17,538 nucleotides of DNA. Origin: a virus. Its lineage: Duplodnaviria > Heunggongvirae > Uroviricota > Caudoviricetes. Where the stretch lies: the IMG/VR virus record IMGVR_UViG_3300029079_000044; one strand, given 5' to 3'. Below are positions 1,790-15,560 of this stretch, in pieces. The notes beneath the pieces were generated by a model that saw nothing but the letters and a program-made list of their open reading frames with translations, made no database searches and was not told the origin of the DNA. How positions within the stretch are numbered: position 1 is the first letter of the stretch; each line of letters opens with the position of its first letter. The translations under genes and the position numbers were made by a program.

Positions 1790-1869
1790 TGTGTTTTAAC
1801 CTCATTACAGATTTCAGGGTGAACGAATCCCTGCCATTGCTGGCATATAAAAATGAAACTGGATATTAA

Positions 1870-2073
1870 TTACGGCGCTGTTTTTAATCCTGCCGGGATT
1901 TCGTTATTATCCTGGTGAATAACTTTATCGACCGGGTAACAGTTACCGGGAATTTTCTGTTCGGTTGCTGCAGTCACACACTCCTGCATTGTCCTGTGAA
2001 CACTGACTGCAATATCAACTGGCTCTCCGGAAACAAGAAAAACTGTCAGAACAAGTGCAAATGCTGTATTCAT
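1870..2073 (-). CDS. ydfD: YdfD-like small protein with hydrophobic N-terminus (67 aa from internal Met of the 85-aa track ORF)
   Basis: ATG at 2073 overlaps the dicB TGA stop (ATGA coupling); N-terminal hydrophobic stretch AFALVLTVFLVSG; position directly after dicB as in the Qin dicB operon. Confidence 0.5.
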   Translation of the reverse strand: MNTAFALVLTVFLVSGEPVDIAVSVHRTMQECVTAATEQKIPGNCYPVDKVIHQDNNEIPAGLKTAP

Positions 2074-2258
2074 TGCCAGCATCCTTTTTGTATCGGACGT
2101 AAACGGGCCAGCATTGAAAGAATGCATATTTTATTTAATAGCTCCCGTTCGTGTTTTCTCTTGTTAATGGCATCTTCAGTAAATACAGGGTTACTGATAG
2201 TGACACCAATTTCAAAACAACCTTCAGACGTATTAACGTTTGGTAATAACGTTTCCAT
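2070..2258 (-). CDS. dicB: Cell division inhibitor DicB (62 aa)
   Basis: Internal Met of the 2070..2363 track ORF gives METLLPNVNTSEGCFEIGVTISNPVFTEDAINKRK...; GAGGA 7 nt upstream of the ATG; lies immediately downstream of the DicF sRNA as in Qin. Confidence 0.7.
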   Translation of the reverse strand: METLLPNVNTSEGCFEIGVTISNPVFTEDAINKRKHERELLNKICILSMLARLRPIQKGCWQ

Positions 2259-2432
2259 TATCGCGTCCTCAACAATGAATTTTGTGATGCGGTGCCTGGT
2301 GCTTCCAGGTGACGTTAACCAGTTAACAATTAACGCCGGATACAGAGAATCCACCCATAACACTGTTTTTGGTTTTAACTGTTCCGCGTGCGCTCAGCCG
2401 CATTCACCGCATCACAAAATTCACTTTAAAAA

Positions 2433-2485
2433 GGGCGGCAGAGCAGTCACGGAGTAAAACTGATACCGCCAAACGTCACCAGAAA
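2433..2485 (-). ncRNA. dicF: DicF small RNA (ftsZ-targeting), 53 nt
   Basis: Reverse complement reads TTTCTGGTGACGTTTGGCGGTATCAGTTTTACTCCGTGACTGCTCTGCCGCCC followed by TTTTT, matching the DicF sequence as I recall it, including the GGCGG...CCGCC enclosing stem and 3' U-run. Confidence 0.8.
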
Positions 2486-2825
2486 ATTGATAACAGAGGG
2501 CGTTGCAGCGGGGTTGTCACTTAAGCGTATGGTCAACCTGACAACCCGGTGTCCTCAACGGGGAAGGAATAACCCCGCCATACTCACCGCCGCGCCATTT
2601 CGCGGATTGCCACAACCGGAAGCGCACGGTCGACGAAAATTTAACGACAGGCTATCTATGAACCAGCTACCTCGCCGTGCGCTTTCGCGTTATGGTCTGA
2701 CCTTTCAGGGAAATATCCTTTCAGTAAACTGTCTGTGCCGGATGCTCACCCGTGTCCGGCGCACGCACTCCACCTCATCCGTGGAGAACTCCTTAATTAC
2801 CAACCTTAGCTTCGTTGGTTAGCTA

Positions 2826-3044
2826 TTAACGCGGGTATGTAATCATTCTGGCAATGCTTAATGCCGCTGCTTTTTCCAGATTAGTGATATCCTGCTCCAG
2901 AGCGGACAGATTTTCAGCCTGCTTAGCCCTGGCTTCATTGGCCCATTTCAGATCCTGCGCTGCATTAATTTTCTGGTGCATCCACTCATAAAGTTCATCA
3001 TCGGTATAGTCTGGCGCGATGATGACGGGTTCTCGTTTCTGCAT
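2826..3044 (-). CDS. ydfC: YdfC-like small protein (72 aa)
   Basis: Track ORF; GAGGA upstream of ATG at 3044; size and position match ydfC of the Qin dicB operon. Confidence 0.55.
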   Translation of the reverse strand: MQKREPVIIAPDYTDDELYEWMHQKINAAQDLKWANEARAKQAENLSALEQDITNLEKAAALSIARMITYPR

Positions 3045-3073
3045 ACTGATTCCTCGCGGTGCTGTTTCGCTTA

Positions 3074-3202
3074 TCAGCCGTTAGATTTTGCCGAACTGGA
3101 AAGCGCCTGTTTAAATTCGTTGAAGCTGAGAGCTTCTTCGCCTTCGGCAAGACCTTCGAAGTATTCTTCGTAAGCCTTTTCCATGATTGTGTCGAAATCC
3201 AT
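3074..3202 (-). CDS. ydfB: YdfB-like small acidic protein (42 aa, MDFDTIMEKAYEEYFEGLAEGEEALSFNEFKQALSSSAKSNG)
   Basis: Hand-translated minus-strand ORF below the track length cutoff; AGGTGAG Shine-Dalgarno 7 nt upstream; abuts the ydfA-like stop; size matches ydfB. Confidence 0.45.
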   Translation of the reverse strand: MDFDTIMEKAYEEYFEGLAEGEEALSFNEFKQALSSSAKSNG

Positions 3203-3203
3203 A

Positions 3204-3359
3204 TCACTCACCTGAGTTTCTTTCCAGCCAGCGACGGGCACCATTTTCGGTTTTAAACGTTTTGCTTTTGTTATACGTCATCGCGGTGAACGTACCGTCC
3301 TGGTTGGGGAACACGCCACATACCAGAGATTCGCTGTTGCCAAGATCGATAGTATCCAT
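3204..3359 (-). CDS. ydfA: YdfA-like small protein (51 aa from internal Met of the 78-aa track ORF)
   Basis: Internal ATG at 3359 preceded by GAGG at 5-nt spacing; MDTIDLGNSESLVCGVFPNQDGTFTAMTYNKSKTFKTENGARRWLERNSGE; first gene of the leftward operon. Confidence 0.5.
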   Translation of the reverse strand: MDTIDLGNSESLVCGVFPNQDGTFTAMTYNKSKTFKTENGARRWLERNSGE

Positions 3360-3529
3360 GCTGACCTCATTTCCCCTTAACGCCGGGGTAGCGGAACAAA
3401 AACCTGCTGCATAGTTATTAAAGTTGAACCCTGCCGTCATGTTCTTACGCCTCGGGCTGGCTACTTAACCCCTGACCACTGCCTGGTAACTCGAAGTATT
3501 GCCCTGCATTCTGTGGGGCGGGGTGGTGG

Positions 3530-3585
3530 CAGGTATATAATGTACTTTGCGTTCATTGTTGTAAAGTACTTTTAGTACATTTTGT
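3530..3585. promoter_or_regulatory. OL/PL-like operator-promoter region of the leftward early operon
   Basis: Clustered AGTACT/TGTACT motifs (aatgtactttg; aaagtacttttagtacatt) plus a TATAAT-like block (gtatataatg) between the repressor stop and ydfA. Confidence 0.4.
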
Positions 3586-3655
3586 GTGTAAAAAAATGAG
3601 ATGGGATAAAGTGAAGCACAAACCCGGAGGAAGGCGCTACCGGATTTATGCTGGT

Positions 3656-4075
3656 TTAAGAGGCTTTTTGTTTTTTCTTTCGTGCTAACTCTTCGTAAAT
3701 TGCATTGTACTTCTGTTTTTTCTCTTCAAGAGTTTTTAAAAGTTCATCTGTCTCACTGTCAGGGAGCTCGTCCAGAAGGTCAATGATGATTTTTTGTCTT
3801 GGATTTAACTCCTGATAGAAACGTACCTGTCCACTTTCTTCTGTATCCTCTCCCAAAAGATAGGTTGGTGTTGTTCCTATTAGTGTTGCTAATTCCCTTA
3901 ATTTCTCCCGGCGAGGAATTGTTTCGCCATTAAACCATTTGCTAACCGCTTTTGGTGTTAATTTCATTCGACGGGCAATTTCTGCCTGCCTTCCATGTTG
4001 TTCATAACCAGCGTTTTCACAGGCTAGCGCAAGCCTACTGGCGAACTCTTTACGCGCTTTATCTTCATGAACCAT
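3656..4075 (-). CDS. XRE-family HTH immunity repressor (cI analogue, DicA/RacR-like), 139 aa
   Basis: Track ORF; N-terminal HTH-like segment (EIARRMKLTPKAVSKWFNGE) and acidic/helical C-terminus; divergent from the cro-like gene, with operator repeats on both sides. Confidence 0.75.
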   Translation of the reverse strand: MVHEDKARKEFASRLALACENAGYEQHGRQAEIARRMKLTPKAVSKWFNGETIPRREKLRELATLIGTTPTYLLGEDTEESGQVRFYQELNPRQKIIIDLLDELPDSETDELLKTLEEKKQKYNAIYEELARKKKQKAS

Positions 4076-4094
4076 AAGTTCAATGATATTCGCT

Positions 4095-4150
4095 CTTGAA
4101 TGTACTGTCAGTTCTGTTATAGCATGTACTCAAAGTTCACATTGTGAGGG
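4095..4150. promoter_or_regulatory. OR-like divergent operator-promoter region between the repressor and the cro-like gene
   Basis: TTGAAT -35-like hexamer, two ATGTACT motifs (4100 and 4126) matching the OL repeats, and a TCACAttgTGA palindrome. Confidence 0.4.
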
Positions 4151-4154
4151 TGAT

Positions 4155-4409
4155 ATGAACCAGAAAACACTTGAAGATGTAATCAAAACTGTTCGCGTTG
4201 CTGTTGTGGCCGACGTTTGTGGTGTCAGCCAAAGAGCAATCTATAAATGGATGGATAACGGAAAATTGCCTCGCACAGAATATACCGGCGAAACAAATTA
4301 CGCTGAAAAAATCGCTCTTGCATCAAACGGATTATTTTCTGCCGATGCAATTTTAACTATTGGCAGGAATAAAACTACTACGAAAAAGCTGATGGGAGTT
4401 GATTCATGA
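4155..4409 (+). CDS. Cro-like HTH regulator, YdaS/DicC family (84 aa)
   Basis: Internal ATG at 4155 preceded by GAGGG; HTH-like segment VCGVSQRAIYKWMDNGKLP; stop overlaps the next start (ATGA). Confidence 0.6.
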   Translation: MNQKTLEDVIKTVRVAVVADVCGVSQRAIYKWMDNGKLPRTEYTGETNYAEKIALASNGLFSADAILTIGRNKTTTKKLMGVDS

Positions 4410-4831
4410 AAATCAAGCATGAACACATCCGCATGGCGATGAATGCCTGGGCGCGTCCTGATGGCGAAAAAGTTCCAGCAGCTGGAATAACCCAGGCTTA
4501 TTTTGAGTTGGGTATGACGTTCCCAGAACTGTATGACGACAGCCATCCGGAAGCCCTGGCTCGCAATACCCAGAAAATTTTCCGCTGGGTAGAGAAAGAC
4601 ACCCCTGATGCTGTTGAAAAAATGCAGGCTCTGTTACCGGCGATCGAAAAGGCGATGCCGCCTTTGCTGGTGGCCCGTATGCGCAGCCACAGTTCTGAAT
4701 ATTATCGTGAGATCGTCGAACGGAGGGATCGGCTGGTGAAGGATGTCGATGATTTTGTTGCGTCAGCGGTTGTTTTGTATGACCAGATGAATCGCGGCGG
4801 CCCGGCAGGGAATGCTGTGGTGATGCACTAA
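4406..4831 (+). CDS. ydaT: YdaT-like protein (cII-analogue / putative toxin family), 141 aa
   Basis: Track ORF starting MKIKHEHI..., the N-terminus I associate with the YdaT family; translationally coupled to the upstream cro-like gene. Confidence 0.65.
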   Translation: MKIKHEHIRMAMNAWARPDGEKVPAAGITQAYFELGMTFPELYDDSHPEALARNTQKIFRWVEKDTPDAVEKMQALLPAIEKAMPPLLVARMRSHSSEYYREIVERRDRLVKDVDDFVASAVVLYDQMNRGGPAGNAVVMH

Positions 4832-4853
4832 AAGCACGGTGTTCGGGGGTTTT

Positions 4854-5816
4854 ATGAGCAGCAAGCTTCATGGTCTTGTCTGGGAAGGGTGCGCCTTCAC
4901 CGGCATGATCTTATCCAGGGTGGCGGTTATGGCCCGTCTTGCAGACTACAGCAATGACGAGGGCGTGTCATGGCCTGCCATTGAAACTATCCGGCGTCAG
5001 ATCGGTGCAAGAAGTGAATCCACAGTGAAATCGGCTATTGCAGAACTGGCGAAAGAGGGCTGGCTGACGAAGGAAGAGCGTAAGGTCGGTGGGCGTAATG
5101 TAAGCAATATCTATCGGCTTAATGTGGAAAAACTCGAAGCAGCTGCGGCGGCGGCGCGTGAGTCATATAAACCGAAAAGAAAAATTAGCCCGGCAAAAAA
5201 TGACCCGTTAACAGTTGACCCGTCAAATATTGACCCCTCAACGGTTGACCCGTCAAATTTTGATGGATCAACTGTTGATAAAAAACTGCCGATTAGGGGG
5301 GCGATGATTGACCCCGATCCGTCAGTATTAAAACCTGATCCGTCAGATAAAAGATCTTCTTGTCCGGACGCTTCGCAACCGGACCCGCAGACGGCTGAAC
5401 AGGATTTTTTAACCCGACACCCTGACGCGGTTGTGTTCAGTGCGAAAAAACGCCAGTGGGGAAGTCAGGAAGATTTGGTGTGCGCACAGTGGATCTGGGG
5501 ACGAATCGTGAGTCTTTACGAGCAGGCGGCCAGCGATGATGGCGAGATCACTAGACCGAAAGAACCCAACTGGACAGCATGGGCCAATGACGTTCGCACA
5601 ATGCGGATGCTGGATGGCAGAACTCACAGACAAATTTGTGAAATGTTTGGGCGTCTCCAGCGGGATTCGTTCTGGGTAAAAAACATCATGAGTCCGGCAA
5701 AACTCCGGGAAAAATGGGATGAACTGGTTATCCGCCTGGGGCGTTCGCCTGCGCAGCGTTGCGTGAATCACATTTCTGAACCGGACACTGAAATTCCGCC
5801 GGGCTTCAGGGGGTAA
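4854..5816 (+). CDS. Replication initiator, lambda O-like (winged-helix N-terminus, pentapeptide-repeat linker, C-terminal domain)
   Basis: Track ORF (4839 start; the ATG at 4854 is preferred because of GGGGG upstream); N-terminal helix-turn-helix-like region; DPxxV/DPSxI repeats encoded by in-gene iterons. Confidence 0.6.
   Translation: MSSKLHGLVWEGCAFTGMILSRVAVMARLADYSNDEGVSWPAIETIRRQIGARSESTVKSAIAELAKEGWLTKEERKVGGRNVSNIYRLNVEKLEAAAAAARESYKPKRKISPAKNDPLTVDPSNIDPSTVDPSNFDGSTVDKKLPIRGAMIDPDPSVLKPDPSDKRSSCPDASQPDPQTAEQDFLTRHPDAVVFSAKKRQWGSQEDLVCAQWIWGRIVSLYEQAASDDGEITRPKEPNWTAWANDVRTMRMLDGRTHRQICEMFGRLQRDSFWVKNIMSPAKLREKWDELVIRLGRSPAQRCVNHISEPDTEIPPGFRG
5200..5274. repeat. Five tandem ~15-bp-phased iterons (core TTGACCCGTCAA, internally palindromic TTGAC/GTCAA): candidate origin of replication inside the initiator gene
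   Basis: atgacccgttaa (5200), ttgacccgtcaa (5215), ttgacccctcaa (5230), ttgacccgtcaa (5245), ttgatggatcaa (5260); a further degenerate copy near 5308. Confidence 0.55.
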
Positions 5817-5856
5817 GTGTTAATTTCTGGTCATGAGGTAATTTTCAGGAGGGCTT

Positions 5857-6282
5857 GTGGCAAAAGTTTTTACACAAGAAGAGCGGGAGAAAATTAAAGG
5901 GCAGGTTGTTGAACTCGTACGCCAGAGTGGGCGCGAGACGTTACGACAACTGGAAACTAAAACTGGGGCAACAAGATATCTGATGAGCGTTCTGGCCAGA
6001 GAACTGGTTGCCAGTGGCGATGTATACAACTCTGGTTACGGGTTATTCCCGTCTGAACAGGCGCGTAAGGACTGGCAAAATGCTCGCAAAAAACTCTCAA
6101 GGGCAAAGGTGAAGAAACCTGCAGTGGTTGATCCGGACCTTATCTGGTCGTTACCAGACGGCGAAATACGCCGCTACGACAGGCGCCTGAATATAATCTG
6201 TCGCGAGTGCCGGAAGAGCGAAGCTATGCAGCGTGTACTGGCATTTTATCAAGGAAATGTTAGGTATTTTAGACGTTACTAG
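5857..6282 (+). CDS. Hypothetical protein (141 aa), basic C-terminus; possible DNA-binding
   Basis: GTG start with AGGAGG at about 5 nt upstream; track ORF; no recognisable motif. Confidence 0.5.
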   Translation: MAKVFTQEEREKIKGQVVELVRQSGRETLRQLETKTGATRYLMSVLARELVASGDVYNSGYGLFPSEQARKDWQNARKKLSRAKVKKPAVVDPDLIWSLPDGEIRRYDRRLNIICRECRKSEAMQRVLAFYQGNVRYFRRY

Positions 6283-6435
6283 ATTAAAGAGCATTAGTTC
6301 AGATGTGAATTGACATTTTCATGGCGCAGGGTAGAGCCAGCGTGGTTGTCCGCTTTGCGTCAAAACCAGATATTACCAGATTTAGACATATATTCCCGAT
6401 AGCCCTGCTCTGATGCTACACTCTGTGCTATTTTC

Positions 6436-7122
6436 ATGACCCCAATAAAAATATTTATGACTATTGCTGATTTCAAACGGCCTAAATTGGAGCTCCCAAA
6501 CGGGGCAAACAAACTACTACTGCACTCTTGCTGTGCTCCATGTTCCGGTGAAGTGATGGAGGCGCTTCAGGCCTCGGGAATCGACTACACCATCTTTTTC
6601 TACAACCCGAACATTCATCCTCAGAAAGAGTATTTAATTCGTAAGGATGAAAATATTCGCTTTGCTGAACAACACGGCGTGCCGTTTATCGATGCTGATT
6701 ACGACACCGACAACTGGTTTGAACGTGCCAAAGGAATGGAATGGGAGCCTGAGAGGGGGATCCGTTGTACCATGTGTTTTGACATGCGTTTTGAGCGGAC
6801 AGCGTTGTACGCTGCTGAAAATGGTTTCAGTGTGATCAGCAGTTCACTGGGCATTTCACGCTGGAAAAATATGCAGCAGGTTAACGAGTGTGGGCGGCGA
6901 GCTGTTGCGCATTATCCGGGTATGGTGTACTGGGATTATAACTGGCGCAAGCAGGGCGGCTCGTCCCGTATGATTGAAATCAGCAAGCGCGAAAAATTCT
7001 ATCAGCAGGAATATTGTGGCTGTGTGTATTCTCTGCGCGATACCAATCTACACCGCAAATCTCAGGGACGCCCTCTTATCAAAATTGGTCAACTCCACTA
7101 CGATAAAGAAGAGAAGGAGTGA
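6436..7122 (+). CDS. queH: QueH-like protein (DUF208; putative epoxyqueuosine reductase), 228 aa
   Basis: [11 protein letters not shown] motif near the N-terminus plus downstream RCTMCF and CGC Cys motifs, as I recall for DUF208/QueH. Start is uncertain because no clear Shine-Dalgarno precedes 6436 or 6457. Confidence 0.65.
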
Positions 7123-7154
7123 TTTTATGGAGCACCTTTCTTATTGATTTCATA

Positions 7155-7224
7155 TTGGCGAGGTAGCGGGAGTTAAGTAAAATTGCTGCGGGTGCTTGAG
7201 GTTGTCTGTCTCAGGCATCCGCAG
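7155..7224 (+). promoter_or_regulatory. Promoter-like element (TTGGCG, 17 nt, TAAAAT) followed by conserved hairpin motif copy A
   Basis: -35 at 7155-7160 and -10 at 7178-7183; hairpin 7186-7224 (CTGCGGGTGCTTGAGGT / loop / TCTCAGGCATCCGCAG) with G-U wobble pairs only on the plus strand; sits at the left boundary of the AT-rich cassette. Confidence 0.4.
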
Positions 7225-7330
7225 AAAAATCAGCAAAATGCTCGTTTTATGCACAATTGTAGGATGGTAATCTGATGCATAATTATTCGAAATAACATAA
7301 AATACTAGACGTGTAGGCTGTGGGGTAGTT

Positions 7331-7945
7331 ATGAGAGTAAATAAACTACATTTAGGTGCTAGAGTTTCGCTATTTATAGTGTCATACCTTCCCCTATTCT
7401 TTATCATGTGTTTTGTGCAATTGTATACTTATAGAAGCTATTTAAATTGGAAAGGTATAAGTGTTGAATCATTAACTATTTTCTTTAAATACTTTGGCGC
7501 GGTCAGTGTCATTGGTGTATTATCATTATTTGGTATTGTAGGATTAACAATTTTTTTAAAAAATATAAAACGTCGATGCGCCACTAGTGGTAGAACTGTA
7601 AGAGTTATAGATATTGAAAATAAAAACAATGAATCAATAAGCTATCTTTTTACATATATAATTCCGTTTGTATTTCAGGATCTATCCACTTTAACTAATG
7701 TTATACCTATAGCAATATTGTTAACGGTAACGGCTTTAATATATATTAATTCAAGCATGATACTTATAAATCCTACAATAAGTATTAATTATACTTTATA
7801 TCAAGTTACATATTTGGATTTAGAAAGCGACAAAAAACGCACTGGTATGGTTTTGACTAAATCAAAGTATTTGGAGGAAGATGATCTTCTTGATGTTGAG
7901 GACGTGGGCCCAAAACTTTTTTATGCTGAATCCCATAAGGAATGA
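7331..7945 (+). CDS. Integral membrane protein with about 4 predicted TM helices and an acidic C-terminal tail (204 aa); first gene of the AT-rich cassette, KwaA-like architecture
   Basis: Track ORF; hydrophobic segments LFIVSYLPLFFIMCFVQLY, AVSVIGVLSLFGIVGLTIFL, YLFTYIIPFVF, VIPIAILLTVTALIYI; GGGG upstream of the ATG; stop overlaps the next start. Confidence 0.7.
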   Translation: MRVNKLHLGARVSLFIVSYLPLFFIMCFVQLYTYRSYLNWKGISVESLTIFFKYFGAVSVIGVLSLFGIVGLTIFLKNIKRRCATSGRTVRVIDIENKNNESISYLFTYIIPFVFQDLSTLTNVIPIAILLTVTALIYINSSMILINPTISINYTLYQVTYLDLESDKKRTGMVLTKSKYLEEDDLLDVEDVGPKLFYAESHKE

Positions 7946-8970
7946 AAATGTTAAAGCTTGAAGAATTATTAGAGTATGCTGAGCAACTTAAGGATGATGA
8001 TGCGGCGAAAATATCGTTGTATTTCATTACTAGACATCTTAAAGCGGGTATGAGTAGAACCGCAAGAGTTGTTGATAAATTCGATTTTAAAATCATTAAA
8101 GCTCCAATCGCTCCAGATATTGCTAAATTTTTTAAGTATACTTTATCAAACCAGATTATTTCTCATGCTTCGAAAGATGATATTGTGATGAAAAAGTATA
8201 CTGTTATTGATGATGATATTGATAATAAGATTTATGCCTATGCTATGAATAACGCGATATCGTTTTCAAAAGTTATTAATAACGATATAAAGAATGATAA
8301 ACCAGTTGTACTTACCTCTCTTGCTGAGGTTCAGAATGATTTGTGGGCCTATTGTATTAAAGTCCAAAAGGGGGCTGACGTCACTTATTCTTTCCGAAAA
8401 ATCAGCAGGGGGAAAGTCACAACAAATGAACCACAAAATATGACTCAGCGCGTATTCGCTTTGTTTGATAAAACAGATAAAGAGTTAAGATCATTTGATG
8501 GCAGCGCAGTCAATTTTGATGACAAAATCGATTGTGTTTATATAAAAGATCAATTTTATGTATTTCATAAGAAAAGTTTTGAGGCTATTGTAGGCTTGGA
8601 GGTTGAGTTTACAGAAGCTGCACAAAAAACATTAAATACAATTAAAGAACTTGATCTTATTGAAGGTTTAGATGTTATTGAACAAGCTATTCTTCATAAG
8701 CCATCACTGAGAAAAATTCTCACTCATATCGCTGAGAAAGGTAACCATACGGTTCTGGAAAAGAATGATGTTCAAGCTATGAATGATGTGCTAAAAATGT
8801 TTCAGAACGAAGAGTTTAAGACCAATGAGCATGGTAAATTAGTCATAGAAGATGAGAGGCAAGGAAGAAACTTTCTCAAACTGTTAAATGATTATTATAA
8901 ACAAGGCATGACTACAAAAAAATACTATGGTACGGATAGCGGAAATGTGATTAACCCTATTAAGGCGTAA
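7942..8970 (+). CDS. Soluble 342-aa protein of unknown function, translationally coupled to the upstream membrane protein; candidate defence effector/sensor (KwaB-like size)
   Basis: Track ORF; ATGA start/stop overlap at 7942-7945; AT-rich codon usage unlike the flanking genes; no catalytic motif recognisable by eye. Confidence 0.7.
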   Translation: MKMLKLEELLEYAEQLKDDDAAKISLYFITRHLKAGMSRTARVVDKFDFKIIKAPIAPDIAKFFKYTLSNQIISHASKDDIVMKKYTVIDDDIDNKIYAYAMNNAISFSKVINNDIKNDKPVVLTSLAEVQNDLWAYCIKVQKGADVTYSFRKISRGKVTTNEPQNMTQRVFALFDKTDKELRSFDGSAVNFDDKIDCVYIKDQFYVFHKKSFEAIVGLEVEFTEAAQKTLNTIKELDLIEGLDVIEQAILHKPSLRKILTHIAEKGNHTVLEKNDVQAMNDVLKMFQNEEFKTNEHGKLVIEDERQGRNFLKLLNDYYKQGMTTKKYYGTDSGNVINPIKA

Positions 8971-9198
8971 AGCATATACTATATCTGGAACTGAAATACC
9001 AGCCGCCATCAGAAAGAACTGATGGGGCTTACAAATAGTAAGTAAATATAAAATGTTAAGGTATTTTTCATGCAAAAATGAAAATCATTGGCACAAATTA
9101 GAAACTAAGTAAATTGCTAATACTAATAACTTATTATTCTACTTACTATTTGCATGGAGTTGTTGTGAATTGCTGGAAAGGTGGGTAATGTTTTTGTA

Positions 9199-9237
9199 GA
9201 ATCACGGCGGGTGCTTGAGGCTATCTGCCTCGGGCAC
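9199..9237 (+). promoter_or_regulatory. Conserved -10-like hexamer (TAGAAT) plus hairpin motif copy B
   Basis: GCGGGTGCTTGAGGCTATCTGCCTCGGGCA at 9207-9236 is 26/30 identical to copy A at 7188-7217; forms an 11-bp stem GTGCTTGAGGC/GCCTCGGGCAC with loop tatct; sits at the right boundary of the AT-rich cassette. Confidence 0.4.
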
Positions 9238-9399
9238 GAACACCAAAGGCAGATAGAGAAAAGCCCCAGTTAACATTACGCGTCCTGCAAGACGCTTAAC
9301 ATTAATCTGAGGCCAATTTCATGCTAGACACATGTAGGTTAGCCTCTTACGTGCCGAAAGGCACGGAGAAGCAGGCTATTGTTAACACCAAGCTGTAAT

Positions 9400-10900
9400 G
9401 TCCCCTTTGAACCATTCTAAAATGTCCCCAGACAATTCTCTGGGGGATTTTTCATGATCAAAGAGACTGTTACGATGAGTCATAAGGAACTCCACCGACT
9501 TCAGATTATTCAGGAACAAGCTGCGGCACGCATTGGCATTTCTATTCGGCAGGTTAAACGTCTGGTGCAACGGTATAGAAATGAAGGGCCTTCTGGTCTG
9601 GTTTCCCACCGACGTGGAAAGCGTCCTAATAATTCCTTTTCTACTGAATTCAGAGCAACAGTAATTTCACTCCTCAAAGGCCGTTACGCTGATTTTGGAC
9701 CTACGTTTGCGTGCGAAAAATTGCGCGAGATACACGGTTTATCTTTATCCGTTGAAACTCTCAGAAAGTGGATGATAGAAGAGGGGTTATGGCGTGAACG
9801 CCGTCGTAAAATTGCCCGTATATATCAACGCCGCATGCGACGACCATCTTACGGTGAACTGATCCAGATTGATGGCTCACCTCATGACTGGTTTGAAAAT
9901 CGAGGCCCCAGATGTACACTGATCGTTTTCATTGATGATGCCACCAGTGCGTTGATGGCGTTGCGTTTTGTGCCTGCTGAAACAACCCGGGCTTACATGG
10001 AAACCCTCCGGGGTTACCTTAATGATCATGGCGTACCGCTCGCTCTCTACTCTGATAGACACAGTATATTCAGGGTAAATAACCCAGAGCGGGAAGGTGA
10101 GCTGACCCAGTTCACTCGTGCGATAAAGACACTGGGCATCGAGCCAATCCATGCCAACAGCCCGCAGGCAAAAGGGCGGGTAGAGCGCGCCAATCAGACA
10201 CTACAGGACAGGCTGGTCAAAGAAATGCGGCTTCAGAATATCAGTGATATTGAAACAGCAAATGCATGGTTGCCGACCTTTATTGAAGCCTATAACAACC
10301 GGTTCGCTACGTCGCCTCGTACTACTGATAATGCTCATCTTGATGTGCACCATTCTGAAGAGGAACTGGGTTATATCTTCAGCCTACAGGCGAAGCGCGT
10401 TCTGTCTAAAAATCTCACTTTCCAGTACAAAAGCAGTGCGTTTCAGGTACGCAGTGAGGGCCGGGGATATCGACTTAGGCATTCGGTTGTTACTGTATGC
10501 GAGAACTTTGACGGTGAAATTAACGTTCTGTATGACGGGAAAGCGCTGGGCTGGGAAAAGTATGTTGATGGCCCGGAGCCTATACCACTGGATGATGAAA
10601 AGAGTGTCCATGAACGAGTGGATAATGCCCGTATTGATTTACGCTCAAAATACTATGTTAAACCTAAAGCTGACCATCCCTGGCTTACGCGCCGAACGCA
10701 AAGTCATCAGCAAGTTAAGCCCCCGAAGTTACCTAAAAAGAAGCCTGATCCCGATAAAAAAGATTGAAACCAAGATCGATTCGGTTGAGTGCATATCCAT
10801 TCATAGGGTAGATTCTTAAGTCGCGTTTCTGGTGTTCATTTTCGGGTGGTTTGTTACTTGTTTTACCGGGGATATGCCAGAAACGCGCTGAGTCAGTCTG
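9400..10900 (+). mobile_element. Insertion sequence carrying one DDE transposase gene (IS481/ISNCY-like); ends approximate
   Basis: Single 437-aa transposase ORF; terminal inverted repeats could not be resolved by eye, so these bounds are a guess of ORF plus about 50-130 bp each side. Confidence 0.35.
9454..10767 (+). CDS. DDE transposase with N-terminal HTH and rve integrase core (IS481/ISNCY-family-like), 437 aa
   Basis: Track ORF; N-terminal HTH (ARIGISIRQVKRLVQRYRNEG); catalytic-triad candidates in IQIDGS, YSDRHS and KGRVERANQTLQ; lysine/proline-rich basic C-terminus. Confidence 0.8.
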   Translation: MIKETVTMSHKELHRLQIIQEQAAARIGISIRQVKRLVQRYRNEGPSGLVSHRRGKRPNNSFSTEFRATVISLLKGRYADFGPTFACEKLREIHGLSLSVETLRKWMIEEGLWRERRRKIARIYQRRMRRPSYGELIQIDGSPHDWFENRGPRCTLIVFIDDATSALMALRFVPAETTRAYMETLRGYLNDHGVPLALYSDRHSIFRVNNPEREGELTQFTRAIKTLGIEPIHANSPQAKGRVERANQTLQDRLVKEMRLQNISDIETANAWLPTFIEAYNNRFATSPRTTDNAHLDVHHSEEELGYIFSLQAKRVLSKNLTFQYKSSAFQVRSEGRGYRLRHSVVTVCENFDGEINVLYDGKALGWEKYVDGPEPIPLDDEKSVHERVDNARIDLRSKYYVKPKADHPWLTRRTQSHQQVKPPKLPKKKPDPDKKD

Positions 10901-11203
10901 GGCGGTGCGCGTAATGAGGCGTTATGGTAAATAGCCTATGCTAATGTCCGCTAAGAGCAAGAAGCGGAAGTTGGCAGTTTTGTGGACTGTCCCCACAAAA
11001 GTGACTACAGAAATAGTTGCAATTCATAATTGATCATGGGTTGTCAGTTAAACTCGTGGCGATTTAAATAGACTAATTGGGAGTGCGTCCATTACTTATA
11101 TCTTGTAATGTTAACTATCAGAAATGATACAAAGATAATATGTCTTTAAAGAAAAGGCTGATGGCGAAAAGTGGCCCGATGAGGGCCACAATACGGCTGT
11201 CAC

Positions 11204-11536
11204 TTAGACGTAAATATCAATGGTGCCAGCGGTATTTGTATCGTCTTTTTTCTCTTCTTTTTTATCAGGCTGAACTGTCGCGTCTTCATTCTTTTTCTCT
11301 GCCTGCTGCCTTAACAACTGCTCCAGTTGAGCCCAGAGGCTTTCAATTTGCTTCTGTACCAATGCAGCCATTTCTTTTTTCTGCTGTGTCGTCATCCCCT
11401 CTTCCGATGAGATTTTCCCAAGCTTTTCAGTCAGCACCTGAATTTGTCTTGTGATTTTGGCTATTTCTGATGTTCCTTCCGGGGCGGAGTTGTTTGAAAT
11501 AACGGTTGAGGTATTTCCCTGAATTGTGACAGACAT
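11204..11536 (-). CDS. flxA: FlxA-like protein (110 aa)
   Basis: Track ORF MSVTIQGNTS...; AGGAG Shine-Dalgarno; preceded by a near-consensus sigma-28 promoter; position next to relB as in Qin. Confidence 0.7.
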   Translation of the reverse strand: MSVTIQGNTSTVISNNSAPEGTSEIAKITRQIQVLTEKLGKISSEEGMTTQQKKEMAALVQKQIESLWAQLEQLLRQQAEKKNEDATVQPDKKEEKKDDTNTAGTIDIYV

Positions 11537-11559
11537 AGATTTCTCCTTTTAAAAAAGCA

Positions 11560-11586
11560 CTATCGGCATGCACAAAAAAATCTTTA
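11560..11586 (-). promoter_or_regulatory. Sigma-28 (FliA) class-3 promoter for flxA
   Basis: Minus strand reads TAAAGATT, 11 nt, GCCGATAG against the consensus TAAAGTTT-N11-GCCGATAA; the -10 element lies about 24 nt upstream of the flxA ATG. Confidence 0.6.
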
Positions 11587-11738
11587 ATCGTATTTCTTGT
11601 GTCATTAATTGTTTGATGTTCAGATTGTTTTCCTCGCGGGCTGGCGCGCCTCAGAAAGTAAAGCTTGTTGACAGGGGTAAACGTTCGGCAATAATTTTCT
11701 GCCGCATGCGGGTGTTGCATAAAACGTGTTACGTTCCT

Positions 11739-12044
11739 TTATCGACAGTTCAGGTCACCGCTCACCCGCCGACGAGAAAGCAACACTGACATGCTAAAGC
11801 AAAAAATAGATGAATAAGTTGAGTTGTGCATATGTAGCCTGACCGTCACAAAGTATATGGTGTCTGTACCAGTAAGATGATGGCCGGACTCTTTAAAAAC
11901 GAGCTGACCTGCACAATACAGGATGGACTTAGCAATGGCTGCTCCTGGCACAAAGCGGACAGTGATCACCGTTCTTACGACTACTTTCTGACTTCCTTCG
12001 TGACTTGCCCTAAGCATGTTGTAGTGCGATACTTGTAATGACAT
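11739..12044 (-). CDS. YdfV-like hypothetical ORF (101 aa), doubtful
   Basis: Track ORF with size and position like ydfV between flxA and relB; no convincing Shine-Dalgarno; start lies inside the relBE promoter/operator. Confidence 0.3.
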   Translation of the reverse strand: MSLQVSHYNMLRASHEGSQKVVVRTVITVRFVPGAAIAKSILYCAGQLVFKESGHHLTGTDTIYFVTVRLHMHNSTYSSIFCFSMSVLLSRRRVSGDLNCR

Positions 12045-12060
12045 TTGTAATTACAAGAGG
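12004..12060 (+). promoter_or_regulatory. relBE promoter and relO operator
   Basis: TTGCCC, 17 nt, GATACT, then repeated TTGTAAT/ATTACAA hexads (cttgtaatgacatttgtaattacaag) directly upstream of relB. Confidence 0.6.
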
Positions 12061-12068
12061 TGTAAGAC

Positions 12069-12308
12069 ATGGGTAGCATTAACCTGCGTATTGACGATGA
12101 ACTTAAAGCGCGTTCTTACGCCGCGCTTGAAAAAATGGGTGTAACTCCTTCTGAAGCGCTTCGTCTCATGCTCGAGTATATCGCTGACAATGAACGCTTG
12201 CCGTTCAAACAGACACTCCTGAGTGATGAAGATGCTGAACTTGTGGAGATAGTGAAAGAACGGCTTCGTAATCCTAAGCCAGTACGTGTGACGCTGGATG
12301 AACTCTGA
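12069..12308 (+). CDS. relB: RelB antitoxin (79 aa)
   Basis: MGSINLRIDDELKARSYA...PKPVRVTLDEL matches RelB as I recall it; AGAGG Shine-Dalgarno; TGATG overlap with relE. Confidence 0.9.
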   Translation: MGSINLRIDDELKARSYAALEKMGVTPSEALRLMLEYIADNERLPFKQTLLSDEDAELVEIVKERLRNPKPVRVTLDEL

Positions 12309-12595
12309 TGGCGTATTTTCTGGATTTTGACGAGCGGGCACTAAAGGAATGGCGAAAGCTGGGCTCGACGGTACGTGAACAGTTGAAAAAGAAGCTGGTT
12401 GAAGTACTTGAGTCACCCCGGATTGAAGCAAACAAGCTCCGTGGTATGCCTGATTGTTACAAGATTAAGCTCCGGTCTTCAGGCTATCGCCTTGTATACC
12501 AGGTTATAGACGAGAAAGTTGTCGTTTTCGTGATTTCTGTTGGGAAAAGAGAACGCTCGGAAGTATATAGCGAGGCGGTCAAACGCATTCTCTGA
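12308..12595 (+). CDS. relE: RelE mRNA interferase toxin (95 aa)
   Basis: MAYFLDFDERALKEWRKLGSTVR...VYSEAVKRIL matches RelE as I recall it. Confidence 0.9.
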   Translation: MAYFLDFDERALKEWRKLGSTVREQLKKKLVEVLESPRIEANKLRGMPDCYKIKLRSSGYRLVYQVIDEKVVVFVISVGKRERSEVYSEAVKRIL

Positions 12596-12666
12596 ACCAA
12601 AGCATGACATCTCTGTTTCGCACCGAAGGTGACACTTCTGCTTTGCGTTGACAGGAGAAGCAGGCT

Positions 12667-12822
12667 ATGAAGCAGCAAAAGGCGATGTTAATCGCCCTGA
12701 TCGTCATCTGTTTAACCGTCATAGTGACGGCACTGGTAACGAGGAAAGACCTCTGCGAGGTACGAATCCGAACCGGCCAGACGGAGGTCGCTGTCTTCAC
12801 AGCTTACGAACCTGAGGAGTAA
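12667..12822 (+). CDS. hokD: Hok-family membrane toxin HokD/RelF (51 aa)
   Basis: Hand-translated MKQQKAMLIALIVICLTVIVTALVTRKDLCEVRIRTGQTEVAVFTAYEPEE; below the track length cutoff; follows relE as in the relBEF operon. Confidence 0.8.
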   Translation: MKQQKAMLIALIVICLTVIVTALVTRKDLCEVRIRTGQTEVAVFTAYEPEE

Positions 12823-12890
12823 GAGACCCGGCGGGGGAGAAATCCCTCGCCACCTCTGATGTGGCAGGCATCCTCAACGCACCCGCACTT

Positions 12891-12917
12891 AACCCGCTTC
12901 GGCGGGTTTTTGTTTTT
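12891..12917 (+). terminator. Rho-independent terminator after hokD
   Basis: aaCCCGCttcgGCGGGtttttgttttt: GC stem, 4-nt loop, U-run. Confidence 0.6.
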
Positions 12918-12930
12918 ATTTTCAACGCGT

Positions 12931-12960
12931 TTGAAGTTCTGGACGGTGCCGGAATAGAAT
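12931..12960 (+). promoter_or_regulatory. Sigma-70-like promoter upstream of rem
   Basis: TTGAAG, 18 nt, TAGAAT. Confidence 0.4.
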
Positions 12961-13038
12961 CAAAAATACTTAAGTAGCGCGCAGGGATAAGAGGGATGGT
13001 CCCTTAAAGGGGAGAGCTAATTATCCGGAAGGATTCTG

Positions 13039-13290
13039 ATGATGAACATCGAAGAACTGCGTAAAATTTTTTGTGAAGATGGCCTCTATGCTGTGTGCGT
13101 TGAAAATGGAAATCTTGTTAGTCATTACCGCATTATGTGTTTGCGAAAGAATGGGGCTGCGTTAATTAATTTTGTGGATGCTCGGGTCACGGACGGATTT
13201 ATCTTGCGCGAAGGTGAGTTTGTCACTTCATTACAGGCATTGAAAGAGATCGGAATAAAAGCTGGCTTTTCTGCTTTTTCAGGAGAATAA
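13039..13290 (+). CDS. rem: Rem-like small protein (83 aa)
   Basis: Track ORF; size and position (between hokD and ydfU) as in Qin. Confidence 0.5.
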   Translation: MMNIEELRKIFCEDGLYAVCVENGNLVSHYRIMCLRKNGAALINFVDARVTDGFILREGEFVTSLQALKEIGIKAGFSAFSGE

Positions 13291-13356
13291 ACTCATCTAC
13301 AATCTTGCGCGGGGCTGAACTCCCGCTGAGTAACACCGTGCCACCGGAGAAAACCG

Positions 13357-13635
13357 ATGGCACGCAACGCAAAATATTACAATTCTGATAATTCGCCCGT
13401 TCTTGCCTGCACGCACGGGCGGTATTCTCACGCATTCAAGTCTGAATGGTTCCAGCACCCTCCATGCACTGCAGAACAGGCCGAATGGCTGATTCATTCT
13501 TACCGCAGGCGCGGGTTCGAGGTTAAGAAAGCTCTCAGTCTCGACTATCGGCACTGGATAATCTCTGTCAGGCTGCCTTATTCCGAACGCCCACCACGTG
13601 CGTCCCGCACTTTCCAGCAACGGATCTGGAGGTAA
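13357..13635 (+). CDS. Hypothetical Cys/His-containing protein (92 aa)
   Basis: Track ORF; GGAG 7 nt upstream of the ATG; its TAA stop lies 1 nt before the GTG start of the next gene. Confidence 0.45.
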   Translation: MARNAKYYNSDNSPVLACTHGRYSHAFKSEWFQHPPCTAEQAEWLIHSYRRRGFEVKKALSLDYRHWIISVRLPYSERPPRASRTFQQRIWR

Positions 13636-13636
13636 C

Positions 13637-14686
13637 GTGCGGGTATTACTTAGACCTGTTCTGGTGCCTGAGCTTGGGCTGGTGGTCCTTAAGCCGGGCC
13701 GTGAATCCATACAGATATTTCATAATCCTCGAGTGCTGGTGGAACCGGAACCAAAAAGCATGCGTAATCTGCCATCCGGAGTCGTTCCTGCCGTTCGCCA
13801 GCCGCTGGCGGAAGACAAAACATTGCTGCCGTTTTTTAGTAACGAACGGGTGATTCGTGCTGCTGGCGGCGTTGGCGCATTGTCCGACTGGCTATTACGT
13901 CATGTTACATCCTGCCAGTGGCCTAATGGCGATTACCATCACACTGAAACAGTCATTCACCGTTATGGTACCGGCGCAATGGTGTTGTGCTGGCACTGCG
14001 ACAACCAACTGCGTGACCAGACATCGGAATCACTGGAGCTGCTTGCTCAACAAAATCTGACAGCATGGGTGATTGACGTCATCCGTCACGCAATAAGCGG
14101 TACGCAGGAGCGGGAATTATCTTTGGCTGAATTATCCTGGTGGGCGGTCTGCAATCAGGTGGTGGATGCACTACCTGAGGCTGTATCGCGTCGTTCGCTG
14201 GGATTACCAGCGGAAAAAATCTGCTCGGTGTACCGCGAAAGCGACATCGTACCGGGAGAGCAGACCGCCACCAGCATATTGAAACAACGCACAAAAAATC
14301 TTGCACCGTTGCCTTACGCCCACCAGCAACAAAAATCACCACAGGAAAAGACGGTGGTAAGCATCACCGTTGATCCAGAGTCTCCGGAATCTTTCATGAA
14401 GCTGCCTAAACGTCGCCGCTGGGTTAAGGAGAAATACACACGTTGGGTTAAGACACAGCCGTGTGCTTGCTGCGGTATGCCAGCCGACGATCCGCATCAT
14501 CTGATTGGTCACGGGCAGGGCGGAATGGGAACAAAAGCACATGATCTCTTTGTGTTGCCTTTGTGCAGAAAGCATCACAACGAGCTGCATACGGATACAG
14601 TGGCATTTGAAGATAAGTATGGCTCCCAACTGGAGCTGATATTTCGTTTTATCGATCGCGCGCTGGCAATTGGCGTACTGGCGTAA
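13637..14686 (+). CDS. ydfU: YdfU-like DUF968 protein (349 aa from GTG)
   Basis: Track ORF 13598..14686 trimmed to the GTG at 13637, which is preceded by GGAGG; length then matches ydfU as I recall it; C-terminal Cys/His cluster (CACCGMPADDPHHLIGHG...CRKHHNELH). Confidence 0.6.
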   Translation: MRVLLRPVLVPELGLVVLKPGRESIQIFHNPRVLVEPEPKSMRNLPSGVVPAVRQPLAEDKTLLPFFSNERVIRAAGGVGALSDWLLRHVTSCQWPNGDYHHTETVIHRYGTGAMVLCWHCDNQLRDQTSESLELLAQQNLTAWVIDVIRHAISGTQERELSLAELSWWAVCNQVVDALPEAVSRRSLGLPAEKICSVYRESDIVPGEQTATSILKQRTKNLAPLPYAHQQQKSPQEKTVVSITVDPESPESFMKLPKRRRWVKEKYTRWVKTQPCACCGMPADDPHHLIGHGQGGMGTKAHDLFVLPLCRKHHNELHTDTVAFEDKYGSQLELIFRFIDRALAIGVLA

Positions 14687-14699
14687 GTGGAGAACGAGC

Positions 14700-15452: not shown

Positions 15453-15483
15453 ATGATTTTTGCTGAAGATGGCGACATGATGT

Positions 15484-15512
15484 TTGCATTTTTCAAAAAA
15501 TATGGATAAAAT
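15484..15512 (+). promoter_or_regulatory. PR'-like late promoter (Q-utilisation region)
   Basis: TTGCAT, 17 nt, TAAAAT, 32 bp after the Q stop. Confidence 0.5.
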
Positions 15513-15560
15513 TTTTTCAACGATGGGCTTTGTATACCCGACGTTAAGAAAAAGTAGAAA

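What the first reader, a model, noticed from the sequence alone, without database searches (positions are those of the whole stretch)
7331..8970. AT-rich two-gene cassette (4-TM membrane protein plus coupled 342-aa protein): candidate anti-phage defence or exclusion module in the prophage cargo region
From about 7130 to 9200 the sequence is visibly much more AT-rich (roughly one-third G+C by eye) than the ~50% G+C flanks, which indicates foreign origin. It carries exactly two genes: a 204-aa protein with about four transmembrane helices and an acidic tail, and a 342-aa soluble protein whose ATG overlaps the upstream stop (ATGA), implying a stoichiometric pair. The cassette sits in the nin-like accessory slot between the replication module and Q, where lambdoid phages typically carry defence morons. 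The architecture (about 200-aa 4-TM protein followed by an about 320-aa partner) is what I recall for Kiwa (KwaA plus DUF4868 KwaB), but I cannot verify homology by eye; it could equally be an undescribed membrane-anchored system.
Basis: partly seen in the sequence, partly recalled or inferred. Interest (0 to 1): 0.8.

Follow-up and report, generated by a model that had tools for sequence, protein, structure and literature searches.

The report
Kiwa anti-phage system in Qin-like prophage
The AT-rich two-gene insert is a Kiwa anti-phage defence system (membrane protein KwaA plus DNA-binding KwaB) carried by a Qin-like E. coli prophage; the system is already described and already annotated in public genomes, so the finding is correct but ordinary.

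Summary
An AT-rich block (32% G+C, flanks 46-48%) carries two co-oriented genes. They encode a 204-aa membrane protein and a soluble partner of 340 aa; the conserved start is 7948, not the ATGA-overlapping 7942.

The Kiwa guess is also right.
- Both proteins match PADLOC KwaA and KwaB models over their full length (E 1e-101 and 5e-159).
- KwaB passes Pfam's KwaB/DUF4868 threshold.
- AlphaFold models of both proteins find only the solved Kiwa structures in the PDB (KwaA TM 0.79-0.82, KwaB 0.60-0.68).

It is a divergent gammaproteobacterial subtype. It shares 14-23% identity with the structurally solved O55:H7 system and falls below NCBIfam's equivalog cut-offs.

The identical cassette is in 156 of 5,426 complete E. 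coli genomes, always at this site. RefSeq already labels it KwaB-like, and newer records label the partner "KwaA family".

New detail: a 2,019-bp insertion lies inside the sok/hokD leader just downstream of queH, bounded by a 41-nt imperfect repeat of the hok promoter and 5' stem-loop. Related prophages (e.g. NCTC9022) show the empty site. kwaAB probably reads from a captured hok promoter.

The mechanism is inferred from published Kiwa work and was not tested here. Novelty: already known. Interest is low.

The parts
7155..7183 (+). Sigma-70-like promoter (TTGGCG-17-TAAAAT). It is the resident hokD promoter and the likely promoter of kwaAB.
   Evidence: Promoter scan. The sequence is identical to the hokD upstream region in the empty-site prophage NCTC9022. 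Its function is inferred.
7177..7217 (+). Left copy of the 41-nt direct repeat: the hok -10 region, a 14-nt core GCGGGTGCTTGAGG (7188-7201) and a variant 5' stem-loop.
   Evidence: the repeat finder family D1, 80% identity, spacing 2019. Alignment to the empty site. Core coordinates. I checked by eye that the five differences in the stem keep it base-paired.
7202..9220 (+). The 2,019-bp inserted segment relative to the empty site. The boundaries assume the crossover fell in the 14-nt core; the register is ambiguous within the repeat.
   Evidence: NCTC9022 positions 3389-3418 match both window 7188-7217 and 9207-9236. G+C is 0.32.
7331..7945 (+). kwaA: a 204-aa membrane protein with four TM helices and a cytoplasmic beta-rich domain formed from the TM2-TM3 loop plus an acidic C-terminus.
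   Evidence: PADLOC KwaA PDLC00212, E 1.3e-101, residues 1-203 of 204. AF2 model with pLDDT 80. Foldseek hit to 9mrx_A, E 7.7e-12, TM 0.79/0.82. Homologues carry PF28043 KwaA.
7937..7941 (+). Shine-Dalgarno sequence AAGGA for kwaB, inside the 3' end of kwaA.
   Evidence: Sequence read. Spacing to ATG 7948 is 6 nt.
7948..8970 (+). kwaB: a 340-aa soluble protein with an N-terminal alpha/beta domain and a C-terminal DUF4868 domain.
   Evidence: PADLOC KwaB PDLC00223, E 5.3e-159. Pfam PF16162, 60.1 bits against a cut-off of 26.3. AF2 model with pLDDT 80. The top six Foldseek PDB hits are all KwaB, E 4.7e-13 to 3e-10.
9196..9236 (+). Right copy of the 41-nt direct repeat: a variant hok promoter -10 (TAGAAT), the core at 9207-9220, and the resident hok 5' stem-loop.
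   Evidence: A promoter-like site lies at 9174-9202.
9209..9380 (+). The sok/hok leader region. It is now cut off from the hokD coding sequence (12667-12822) by a 3.27-kb IS1202-family element.
   Evidence: Rfam RF01794 sok, 105.6 bits against a gathering score of 59, full model. It is 99.4% identical to the NCTC9022 hokD leader.

Best explanation
The cassette is a complete type-I-architecture Kiwa defence system (kwaA-kwaB) of a divergent gammaproteobacterial subtype. It is carried as a moron by a Qin-like lambdoid prophage of E. coli.

Shown here:
- Two intact adjacent genes belong to the KwaA and KwaB families by sequence profile and by predicted fold.
- Both genes are under strong purifying selection across the subtype.
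- The pair is a discrete 2-kb insertion into the sok/hokD leader downstream of queH.

Inferred from published work on other Kiwa systems (PMC11785009):
- KwaA tetramers in the inner membrane hold KwaB dimers in a supercomplex.
- Phage attachment or DNA ejection (or conjugation) perturbs the membrane, and KwaA senses this.
- KwaB then binds the incoming DNA through its DUF4868 domain. This stalls replication and blocks late transcription without killing the cell.
- The phage DNA mimic Gam can inhibit KwaB.

Inferred from anatomy: kwaAB is transcribed from the captured hokD promoter (7155-7183), through a hok-type 5' stem-loop and a leader of roughly 140 nt (assuming the transcript starts at about 7188). 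kwaB translation is coupled to kwaA through a Shine-Dalgarno sequence inside the kwaA 3' end.
For: - Profiles: PADLOC KwaA gives 1.3e-101 and KwaB 5.3e-159, both end to end, plus 11 and 7 further KwaA/KwaB sub-models.
- Pfam KwaB PF16162 is above threshold.
- PDB sequence search finds only KwaA and KwaB.
- The AF2 models (pLDDT 80 each) hit only solved Kiwa chains at E<0.1. KwaA matches 9mrx_A with TM 0.79/0.82 and rmsd 3.4 over 208 columns. KwaB matches 9mrx_D, 9mtn and 9nyu with TM 0.58-0.68 over ~345 columns.
- The low-confidence KwaB loop at 164-175 corresponds to the flexible DE loop of the solved protein.
- Of the four published DNA-contact residues that the phmmer alignment covers, three are retained (D169/K187/R233 map to D, K and R). 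I mapped these by eye from the alignment using the residue list.
- The gene pair keeps identical spacing in E. coli, Vibrio cholerae and Aeromonas.
- dN is 0.09-0.15 with dS saturated; dN/dS is 0.03-0.04 where it could be computed.
- The cassette is >=99.6% identical and intact in 156 genomes.
- The empty site and the flanking repeat are documented.
- RefSeq names the genes 'Kiwa anti-phage protein KwaB-like domain-containing protein' and 'KwaA family protein'.
Against: - No phenotype was tested here.
- Sequence identity to the only structurally solved Kiwa (O55:H7) is just 14-23%. The proteins fall below NCBIfam's equivalog cut-offs (81 against 100 bits for KwaA, 58 against 200 for KwaB), so transfer of mechanistic detail is not guaranteed.
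- One of the four mapped DNA-contact residues is not conserved (R167 maps to N).
- I could not establish whether any of the five functionally tested systems (ECOR8, ECOR12, ECOR49, D9, Ralstonia) belongs to this subtype. By residue checks, ECOR49 does not.
- The promoter assignment rests on a consensus scan whose hit count is not above the shuffled background (13 found, 10.7 expected).
- AT-rich DNA in E. coli is often silenced by H-NS (general knowledge).
Confidence: 0.9

Rival explanations
1. The genes are Kiwa by descent but are inert cargo here. They would be silenced (for example by H-NS on the AT-rich DNA) or too weakly expressed in a grounded prophage, and would give the host no protection.
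For: - G+C is 0.32 in a 0.47 background.
- Apart from the borrowed hok promoter, no promoter stands out above the shuffled expectation.
- The surrounding prophage carries IS insertions and a disrupted hokD locus.
Against: - Both ORFs are intact and >=99.6% identical in all 156 carriers.
- The subtype is under strong purifying selection.
- Published Kiwa operons defend from their native promoters (PMC11785009).
Confidence: 0.12
2. It is a Kiwa-family pair that acts by a different route from the characterised O55:H7 and ECOR systems. Examples would be KwaA opening as a pore (abortive infection) or a block to DNA entry (superinfection exclusion), with KwaB acting as a regulator rather than a DNA clamp.
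For: - Identity to the solved proteins is only 14-23%.
- The proteins fall below the NCBIfam equivalog cut-offs.
- DNA-contact residue R167 is not conserved.
- The published work notes a channel-like KwaA architecture and different phage specificities among variants.
Against: - The full-length folds of both partners are retained.
- Three of the four mappable DNA-contact residues are retained.
- Published variants from different phylogenetic clusters all protected, and the Kiwa system assayed did so without abortive infection.
Confidence: 0.1
3. It is not a defence system at all. It would be a phage-lifecycle or toxin-antitoxin-like moron associated with the hok/sok locus.
For: It lies inside a type I toxin-antitoxin leader and next to relBE.
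Against: - Neither protein matches any toxin-antitoxin, lysis or structural family. Both match only Kiwa models.
- The same pair occurs without any hok element in other hosts and contexts.
Confidence: 0.02

Closest known systems
Kiwa of E. coli O55:H7 RM12579 (KwaA P0DW45, KwaB P0DW46; PDB 9mrg, 9mrr, 9mrx, 9mtn, 9nyu). First described by Doron et al. 2018 (from my own knowledge); mechanism and structures in PMC11785009.
   Same: - The operon is two genes, kwaA then kwaB.
- KwaA has four TM helices and a cytoplasmic beta-domain built from the TM2-TM3 loop and the C-terminus.
- KwaB has an N-terminal alpha/beta domain and a DUF4868 domain.
- Predicted folds superpose over the full length (TM 0.79-0.82 for KwaA, 0.60-0.68 for KwaB).
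- Both are associated with mobile elements.
   Different: - Identity is only 22-23% for KwaA and 14-16% for KwaB.
- Both proteins are longer here (204 against 195 aa; 340 against 315 aa).
- They score below the NCBIfam equivalog cut-offs built around the O55-type.
- DNA-contact residue R167 is replaced by N.
- Phage specificity is unknown.
The same Kiwa subtype (PADLOC KwaA PDLC00212 / KwaB PDLC00223) in other Gammaproteobacteria. Examples are a Vibrio cholerae lambdoid prophage (L007), an Aeromonas veronii chromosomal islet (L009), and an E. coli hlyE-adjacent recombinase element (L004).
   Same: - Proteins are 76-86% identical.
- Gene lengths and the 2-nt kwaA-kwaB spacing are the same in L004 and L009; in the V. 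cholerae locus L007 the called kwaA is 207 aa and overlaps kwaB by 7 nt.
- All copies are AT-rich (29-34% G+C) whatever the host.
- In V. cholerae the pair also sits between the early/replication genes and the lysis genes of a prophage.
   Different: - Homology stops at the coding sequences. The hok-derived flanks and the non-coding 7218-7330 and 8971-9195 are unique to the Qin-like insertion.
- The insertion sites differ.
hok/sok type I toxin-antitoxin locus (hokD/relF of the Qin prophage; Rfam RF01794).
   Same: The cassette is bounded by two copies of the hok promoter and 5' stem-loop. The intact leader is found in empty-site prophages.
   Different: The relationship is one of insertion target, not function. 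The Kiwa genes have no homology to Hok, and the Sok-complementary part of the leader lies downstream of the cassette, not in the predicted kwaAB transcript.

Membership tests
Kiwa defence system | Two adjacent, co-oriented genes, kwaA followed by kwaB. | tested here: met
   kwaA is at 7331-7945 and kwaB at 7948-8970 on the same strand, with a 2-nt gap. The arrangement is conserved in homologous loci.
Kiwa defence system | The first protein matches KwaA profiles. | tested here: met
   PADLOC PDLC00212 gives E 1.3e-101 over residues 1-203, and 11 other KwaA models also match. Homologues carry Pfam PF28043 KwaA. That model is not in the local Pfam copy.
Kiwa defence system | [quoted passage not shown] | tested here: met
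   The AF2 model has helices at 8-33, 45-86, 99-114 and 121-140. Kyte-Doolittle analysis finds three strong segments; the third helix is weaker and contains Q116 and D117. No dedicated topology predictor was available.
Kiwa defence system | KwaA has a cytoplasmic beta-barrel formed by intracellular loop 1 and the C-terminus. | tested here: met
   The model has strands at 88-97, 155-163, 169-176, 186-193 and 196-201. It superposes on 9mrx_A with TM 0.79/0.82 and rmsd 3.4 A. It has five strands where the solved protein has six.
Kiwa defence system | KwaB carries the DUF4868/KwaB domain (PF16162). | tested here: met
   60.1 bits against a gathering score of 26.3, residues 132-319. PADLOC PDLC00223 gives E 5.3e-159 over the full length.
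Kiwa defence system | KwaB has the full-length fold: an N-terminal Rossmann-like domain plus the DUF4868 domain. | tested here: met
   The top six Foldseek PDB hits are all KwaB (E 4.7e-13 to 3.2e-10, ~345 aligned columns, TM 0.58-0.68). The next hit has E 0.39.
Kiwa defence system | The DNA-contact residues of the KwaB channel are conserved (R142, R167, K187, R233, N134, D169 in O55:H7). | tested here: inconclusive
   The phmmer alignment covers four of the six. D169, K187 and R233 align to D, K and R, and R167 aligns to N. N134 and R142 lie outside the aligned stretch. The alignment is at low identity.
Kiwa defence system | KwaA tetramers and KwaB dimers assemble into a supercomplex. | not testable with these tools
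   No multimer prediction was available. It would need AF3 or AF2-multimer modelling, or co-purification.
Kiwa defence system | Anti-phage (and anti-conjugation) phenotype that requires both genes. | not testable with these tools
   Needs plaque and conjugation assays. Shown for other Kiwa operons in PMC11785009.
Kiwa, O55:H7-type equivalogs (NCBIfam NF041622 KwaA / NF041623 KwaB) | Score at or above the curated equivalog cut-off. | tested here: not met
   KwaA scores 81.1 against 100 bits and KwaB 58.4 against 200 bits. The locus is a Kiwa-family member but not of the O55:H7 equivalog group.
hok/sok type I toxin-antitoxin locus (flanks only) | The sok/hok leader RNA is contiguous with a hok ORF. 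| tested here: not met
   The Rfam sok match at 9209-9380 is above the gathering score. However, the hokD ORF lies 3.27 kb away at 12667-12822, behind an IS1202-family element. The left copy is only a 41-nt fragment.

The most novel reading that the evidence does not exclude
This divergent gammaproteobacterial Kiwa subtype, with only about 15-23% identity to the solved system, may have its own trigger or target specificity. In this prophage it may also have acquired hok-type expression control by inserting behind the hokD promoter and 5' stem-loop. That would make it a natural case of a defence operon wired to a toxin-antitoxin promoter. I could not show that any functionally tested Kiwa belongs to this subtype.
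Probability: 0.15. Interest if true: 0.4.

Novelty: already known. Interest (0 to 1): 0.2.

Why it matters
The locus adds no new kind of system. Kiwa is among the commonest defence systems, and this exact cassette is already labelled in RefSeq and covered by dedicated PADLOC models. Three things have modest practical value.
- It confirms that architecture-based reading of raw sequence can correctly call a defence system.
- It gives a clean before-and-after pair: the empty site in NCTC9022-type prophages against the filled site in 156 genomes. This shows a defence moron landing in a toxin-antitoxin leader of a lambdoid prophage and probably borrowing its promoter.
- It identifies a divergent Kiwa subtype, spread across Escherichia, Klebsiella, Vibrio, Aeromonas, Shewanella and others, that would be a useful comparator for how far the published KwaA-sensing and KwaB-DNA-binding mechanism generalises.

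Tried and rejected
- Phage database: megablast of the cassette found no match. The element is seen only in bacterial chromosomes.
- Donor search: I looked for a circular or contiguous 'right end + core + left end' junction in 5,426 E. coli genomes. None exists; all 156 carriers have the same split arrangement. A Campbell-type origin therefore stays a hypothesis.
- Travelling flanks: I tested whether the hok-like flanks move with the cassette. They do not. In the 80%-identical E. coli copy next to hlyE, homology starts a few bases before the kwaA ATG and ends at the kwaB stop.
- Target-site duplication: I considered the 30-41-nt flanking repeat as a transposition footprint. I rejected this as the simplest reading, because the copies differ at 5 of 16 stem-loop positions while the flanks are 98-100% conserved, and because the cassette has no transposase. 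Recombination between diverged hok leaders fits better.
- Identity with tested systems: I tried to decide whether this is the ECOR8, ECOR12 or D9 system tested in PMC11785009. No supplementary tables are held, no accession is given in the text, and a full-text search for the RefSeq protein accessions found nothing. ECOR49 is excluded by residue checks, because KwaA 76-78 and KwaB residue 21 differ.
- Pfam: the local copy has no KwaA model, and only a sub-threshold LrgA hit appeared, which I discarded.
- Terminator scan: none was found directly after kwaB. The only hit, at 9425-9446, lies inside the IS left end.
Full report
**Observation**

The sliding G+C profile falls from about 0.46-0.50 to 0.26-0.36 between roughly 7200 and 9150 and then recovers. 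Measured on the exact segment, G+C is 0.319 for 7218-9195, against 0.475 for 1-7176 and 0.456 for 9237-17538. Third-position G+C is 0.22 and 0.29 in the two genes, against 0.44-0.52 in neighbouring genes.

Long ORFs in such AT-rich DNA are not a chance product. With the local base frequencies a stop codon is expected at 8.4% of codons, so the probability of no stop is 1.6e-8 for 204 codons and 1e-13 for 340. The longest open frame in 500 shuffles averaged 79 codons (maximum 168), against 343 observed.

One detail needs correcting. The ATGA overlap exists, but the conserved start of the second gene is the ATG at 7948.
- Nearly all homologues are 340 aa.
- The PADLOC model starts at residue 3 of the 342-aa reading.
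- RefSeq uses this start.
- AAGGA at 7937-7941 lies 6 nt upstream of it.

**Identity**

Both proteins match Kiwa models from end to end.
- KwaA: PADLOC PDLC00212, E 1.3e-101, residues 1-203.
- KwaB: PADLOC PDLC00223, E 5.3e-159, residues 3-341. Many weaker hits go to other KwaA/KwaB sub-models and to nothing else.
- Pfam PF16162 (KwaB, formerly DUF4868) scores 60.1 bits against a threshold of 26.3.
- NCBIfam's equivalog models, built around the O55:H7-type system, match but stay below their cut-offs (81 against 100 bits; 58 against 200 bits).

A sequence search of the PDB finds only KwaA and KwaB chains, weakly (E about 1e-5 to 1e-6). This is therefore a divergent subtype.

I built alignments of 50 and 52 homologues and predicted both structures. 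Mean pLDDT was 80 for each.
- The KwaA model has four long helices (8-33, 45-86, 99-114, 121-140), one strand in the TM2-TM3 loop and four C-terminal strands. This is the layout described for solved KwaA, with four TM helices and a beta-barrel formed by intracellular loop 1 plus the C-terminus.
- Foldseek against the PDB returned seven hits at E<0.001 for KwaA. All are KwaA, the best being 9mrx_A (E 7.7e-12, TM 0.79/0.82).
- It returned six hits at E<0.001 for KwaB. All are KwaB (E 4.7e-13 to 3e-10, TM 0.58-0.68, about 345 aligned columns). The next hits have E>0.3.
- The only very low-confidence stretch of the KwaB model (164-175) coincides with the flexible DE loop of the solved protein.

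From the phmmer alignment and the residue list in the paper, three of the four mappable DNA-contact residues are retained (D169, K187, R233). R167 is replaced by N.

**Distribution and selection**

The cassette occurs in 156 of 5,426 complete E. coli genomes. It is present once per genome, always chromosomal, at 99.6-100% identity, and always with the same junctions. RefSeq already names the second gene 'Kiwa anti-phage protein KwaB-like domain-containing protein'. The newest records name the first 'KwaA family protein'.

The subtype is found in Klebsiella, Aeromonas, Vibrio, Shewanella, Edwardsiella, Photobacterium, Pseudoalteromonas, Plesiomonas, Pseudomonas and others. The pair keeps the same lengths and the 2-nt spacing in two of three different contexts; in the V. 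cholerae locus the called kwaA is 207 aa and overlaps kwaB by 7 nt:
- next to hlyE, beside a tyrosine-recombinase element, in another E. coli;
- between the early region and the lysis genes of a Vibrio cholerae prophage, next to a gene whose product has a Shedu-type SduA_C domain;
- as a bare two-gene islet in Aeromonas veronii.

All copies are AT-rich (29-34% G+C). Non-synonymous divergence is 0.09-0.15 while synonymous sites are saturated, and dN/dS is 0.03-0.04 where it could be computed.

**Context and insertion site**

The window is a Qin-like lambdoid prophage. It carries DicF, dicB, a repressor/cro pair, O- and P-like replication genes, queH, relBE, hokD, rem, ydfU, a Q-like antiterminator and cspB/cspF.

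A synthetic junction query lacking the insert found 741 genomes in which queH is followed directly by the sok/hokD locus. In NCTC9022 the order is queH-hokD-rem-ydfU-Q.

Aligning that empty site with the two borders shows the following.
- The resident sequence follows the left border up to a 14-nt core, GCGGGTGCTTGAGG (7188-7201).
- It then continues as the right border, from the second core copy (9207-9220).
- The cassette is bracketed by a 41-nt imperfect direct repeat (7177-7217 and 9196-9236, 80% identity, spacing 2,019 nt).
- This repeat is the -10 region and 5' stem-loop of the hok mRNA. Rfam places a full-length sok-family match at 9209-9380.
- The five differences in the left copy's stem preserve base pairing (my reading of the sequence). 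The left copy therefore looks like a genuine diverged hok leader rather than a decayed target duplication.

The simplest reading is recombination between two diverged hok leaders. I found no donor or circular junction among E. coli genomes, and the flanks do not travel with the genes elsewhere.

A consequence, by inference, is that the resident hokD promoter (TTGGCG-17-TAAAAT, 7155-7183) now points into kwaA.

**Mechanism**

Nothing here measures function. The mechanism is transferred from PMC11785009.
- KwaA tetramers and KwaB dimers form a membrane supercomplex.
- Activation occurs at phage attachment or DNA-ejection sites.
- KwaB binds DNA through DUF4868, stalling replication and late transcription without abortive infection.
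- Gam inhibits KwaB and is partitioned between KwaB and RecBCD.

Conservation of both folds supports the transfer. The low identity and the NCBIfam result are reasons for caution. I could not determine whether any assayed Kiwa (ECOR8, ECOR12, D9) is of this subtype.

**Verdict**

The system is already known and already annotated, so interest is low. The only fresh points are the insertion into the hok leader, with a documented empty site, and the divergence of the subtype.

Noticed in passing
window 9380-12653 (direct repeats at 9365-9379 and 12654-12668): The block carrying an intact IS1202/ISNCY-family transposase (9454-10767), flxA, ydfV and relBE looks like a single 3.27-kb transposon inserted exactly at the hokD start codon. 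It is flanked by a 15-nt direct repeat, GGAGAAGCAGGCTAT. Its ends are imperfect inverted repeats (23/34 matches), which is the best inverted match anywhere in the window and above all 200 shuffles. It is absent from the NCTC9022 prophage. 760 E. coli genomes carry the whole block, and K-12 strains lack its first 1,203 nt. This would explain why K-12 hokD (relF) lacks its sok/mok leader and sits behind relBE. No second insertion site was found to prove mobility.
   Followed up: partly
window 9209-9380: A full-length Rfam sok/hok-leader match (105.6 bits) is now an orphan. Its hok coding sequence is 3.3 kb downstream, at 12667-12822. The second hok-type promoter (9174-9202) therefore probably drives a truncated leader RNA that runs into the IS end.
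   Followed up: partly
window 6436-7122: A prophage-borne epoxyqueuosine reductase gene (queH, DUF208 type) sits directly after the replication genes. It is widely conserved in Qin-like prophages, with a partial match in more than 4,000 E. coli genomes. It is a tRNA-modification gene in a phage accessory slot.
   Followed up: no
window 9454-10767 compared with L001 11376-12668: The transposase ORF is intact in this window (437 aa). In strains DP051 and 2900 it is annotated as a pseudogene, followed by the small 'ydfW' ORF. ydfW/intK of K-12 is therefore the C-terminal remnant of this transposase.
   Followed up: partly
window 2433-2484 (-) and 16226-16644 (+): DicF sRNA (76.7 bits) and a cspA-type thermoregulator 5'UTR upstream of the cspB-like gene (162 bits) were found by Rfam at gathering thresholds. 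Both are as expected for a Qin-like prophage.
   Followed up: no
L007 7964-8590 (Vibrio cholerae prophage): In the V. cholerae prophage that carries the same Kiwa subtype, a nearby gene (one pRha-family gene lies between) encodes a protein with a Shedu SduA_C domain. This suggests a small defence cluster in the equivalent accessory slot. A sister prophage (L008) has a KilA-N gene there instead.
   Followed up: no
window 5349-7217 compared with L002: The replication/queH segment is only 92% identical to NCTC9022, while the hok leader and the hokD-to-Q segment are 98.5-99.4% identical. The immunity region upstream of 5349 does not match at all. This is the mosaic structure typical of lambdoid prophages.
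   Followed up: no
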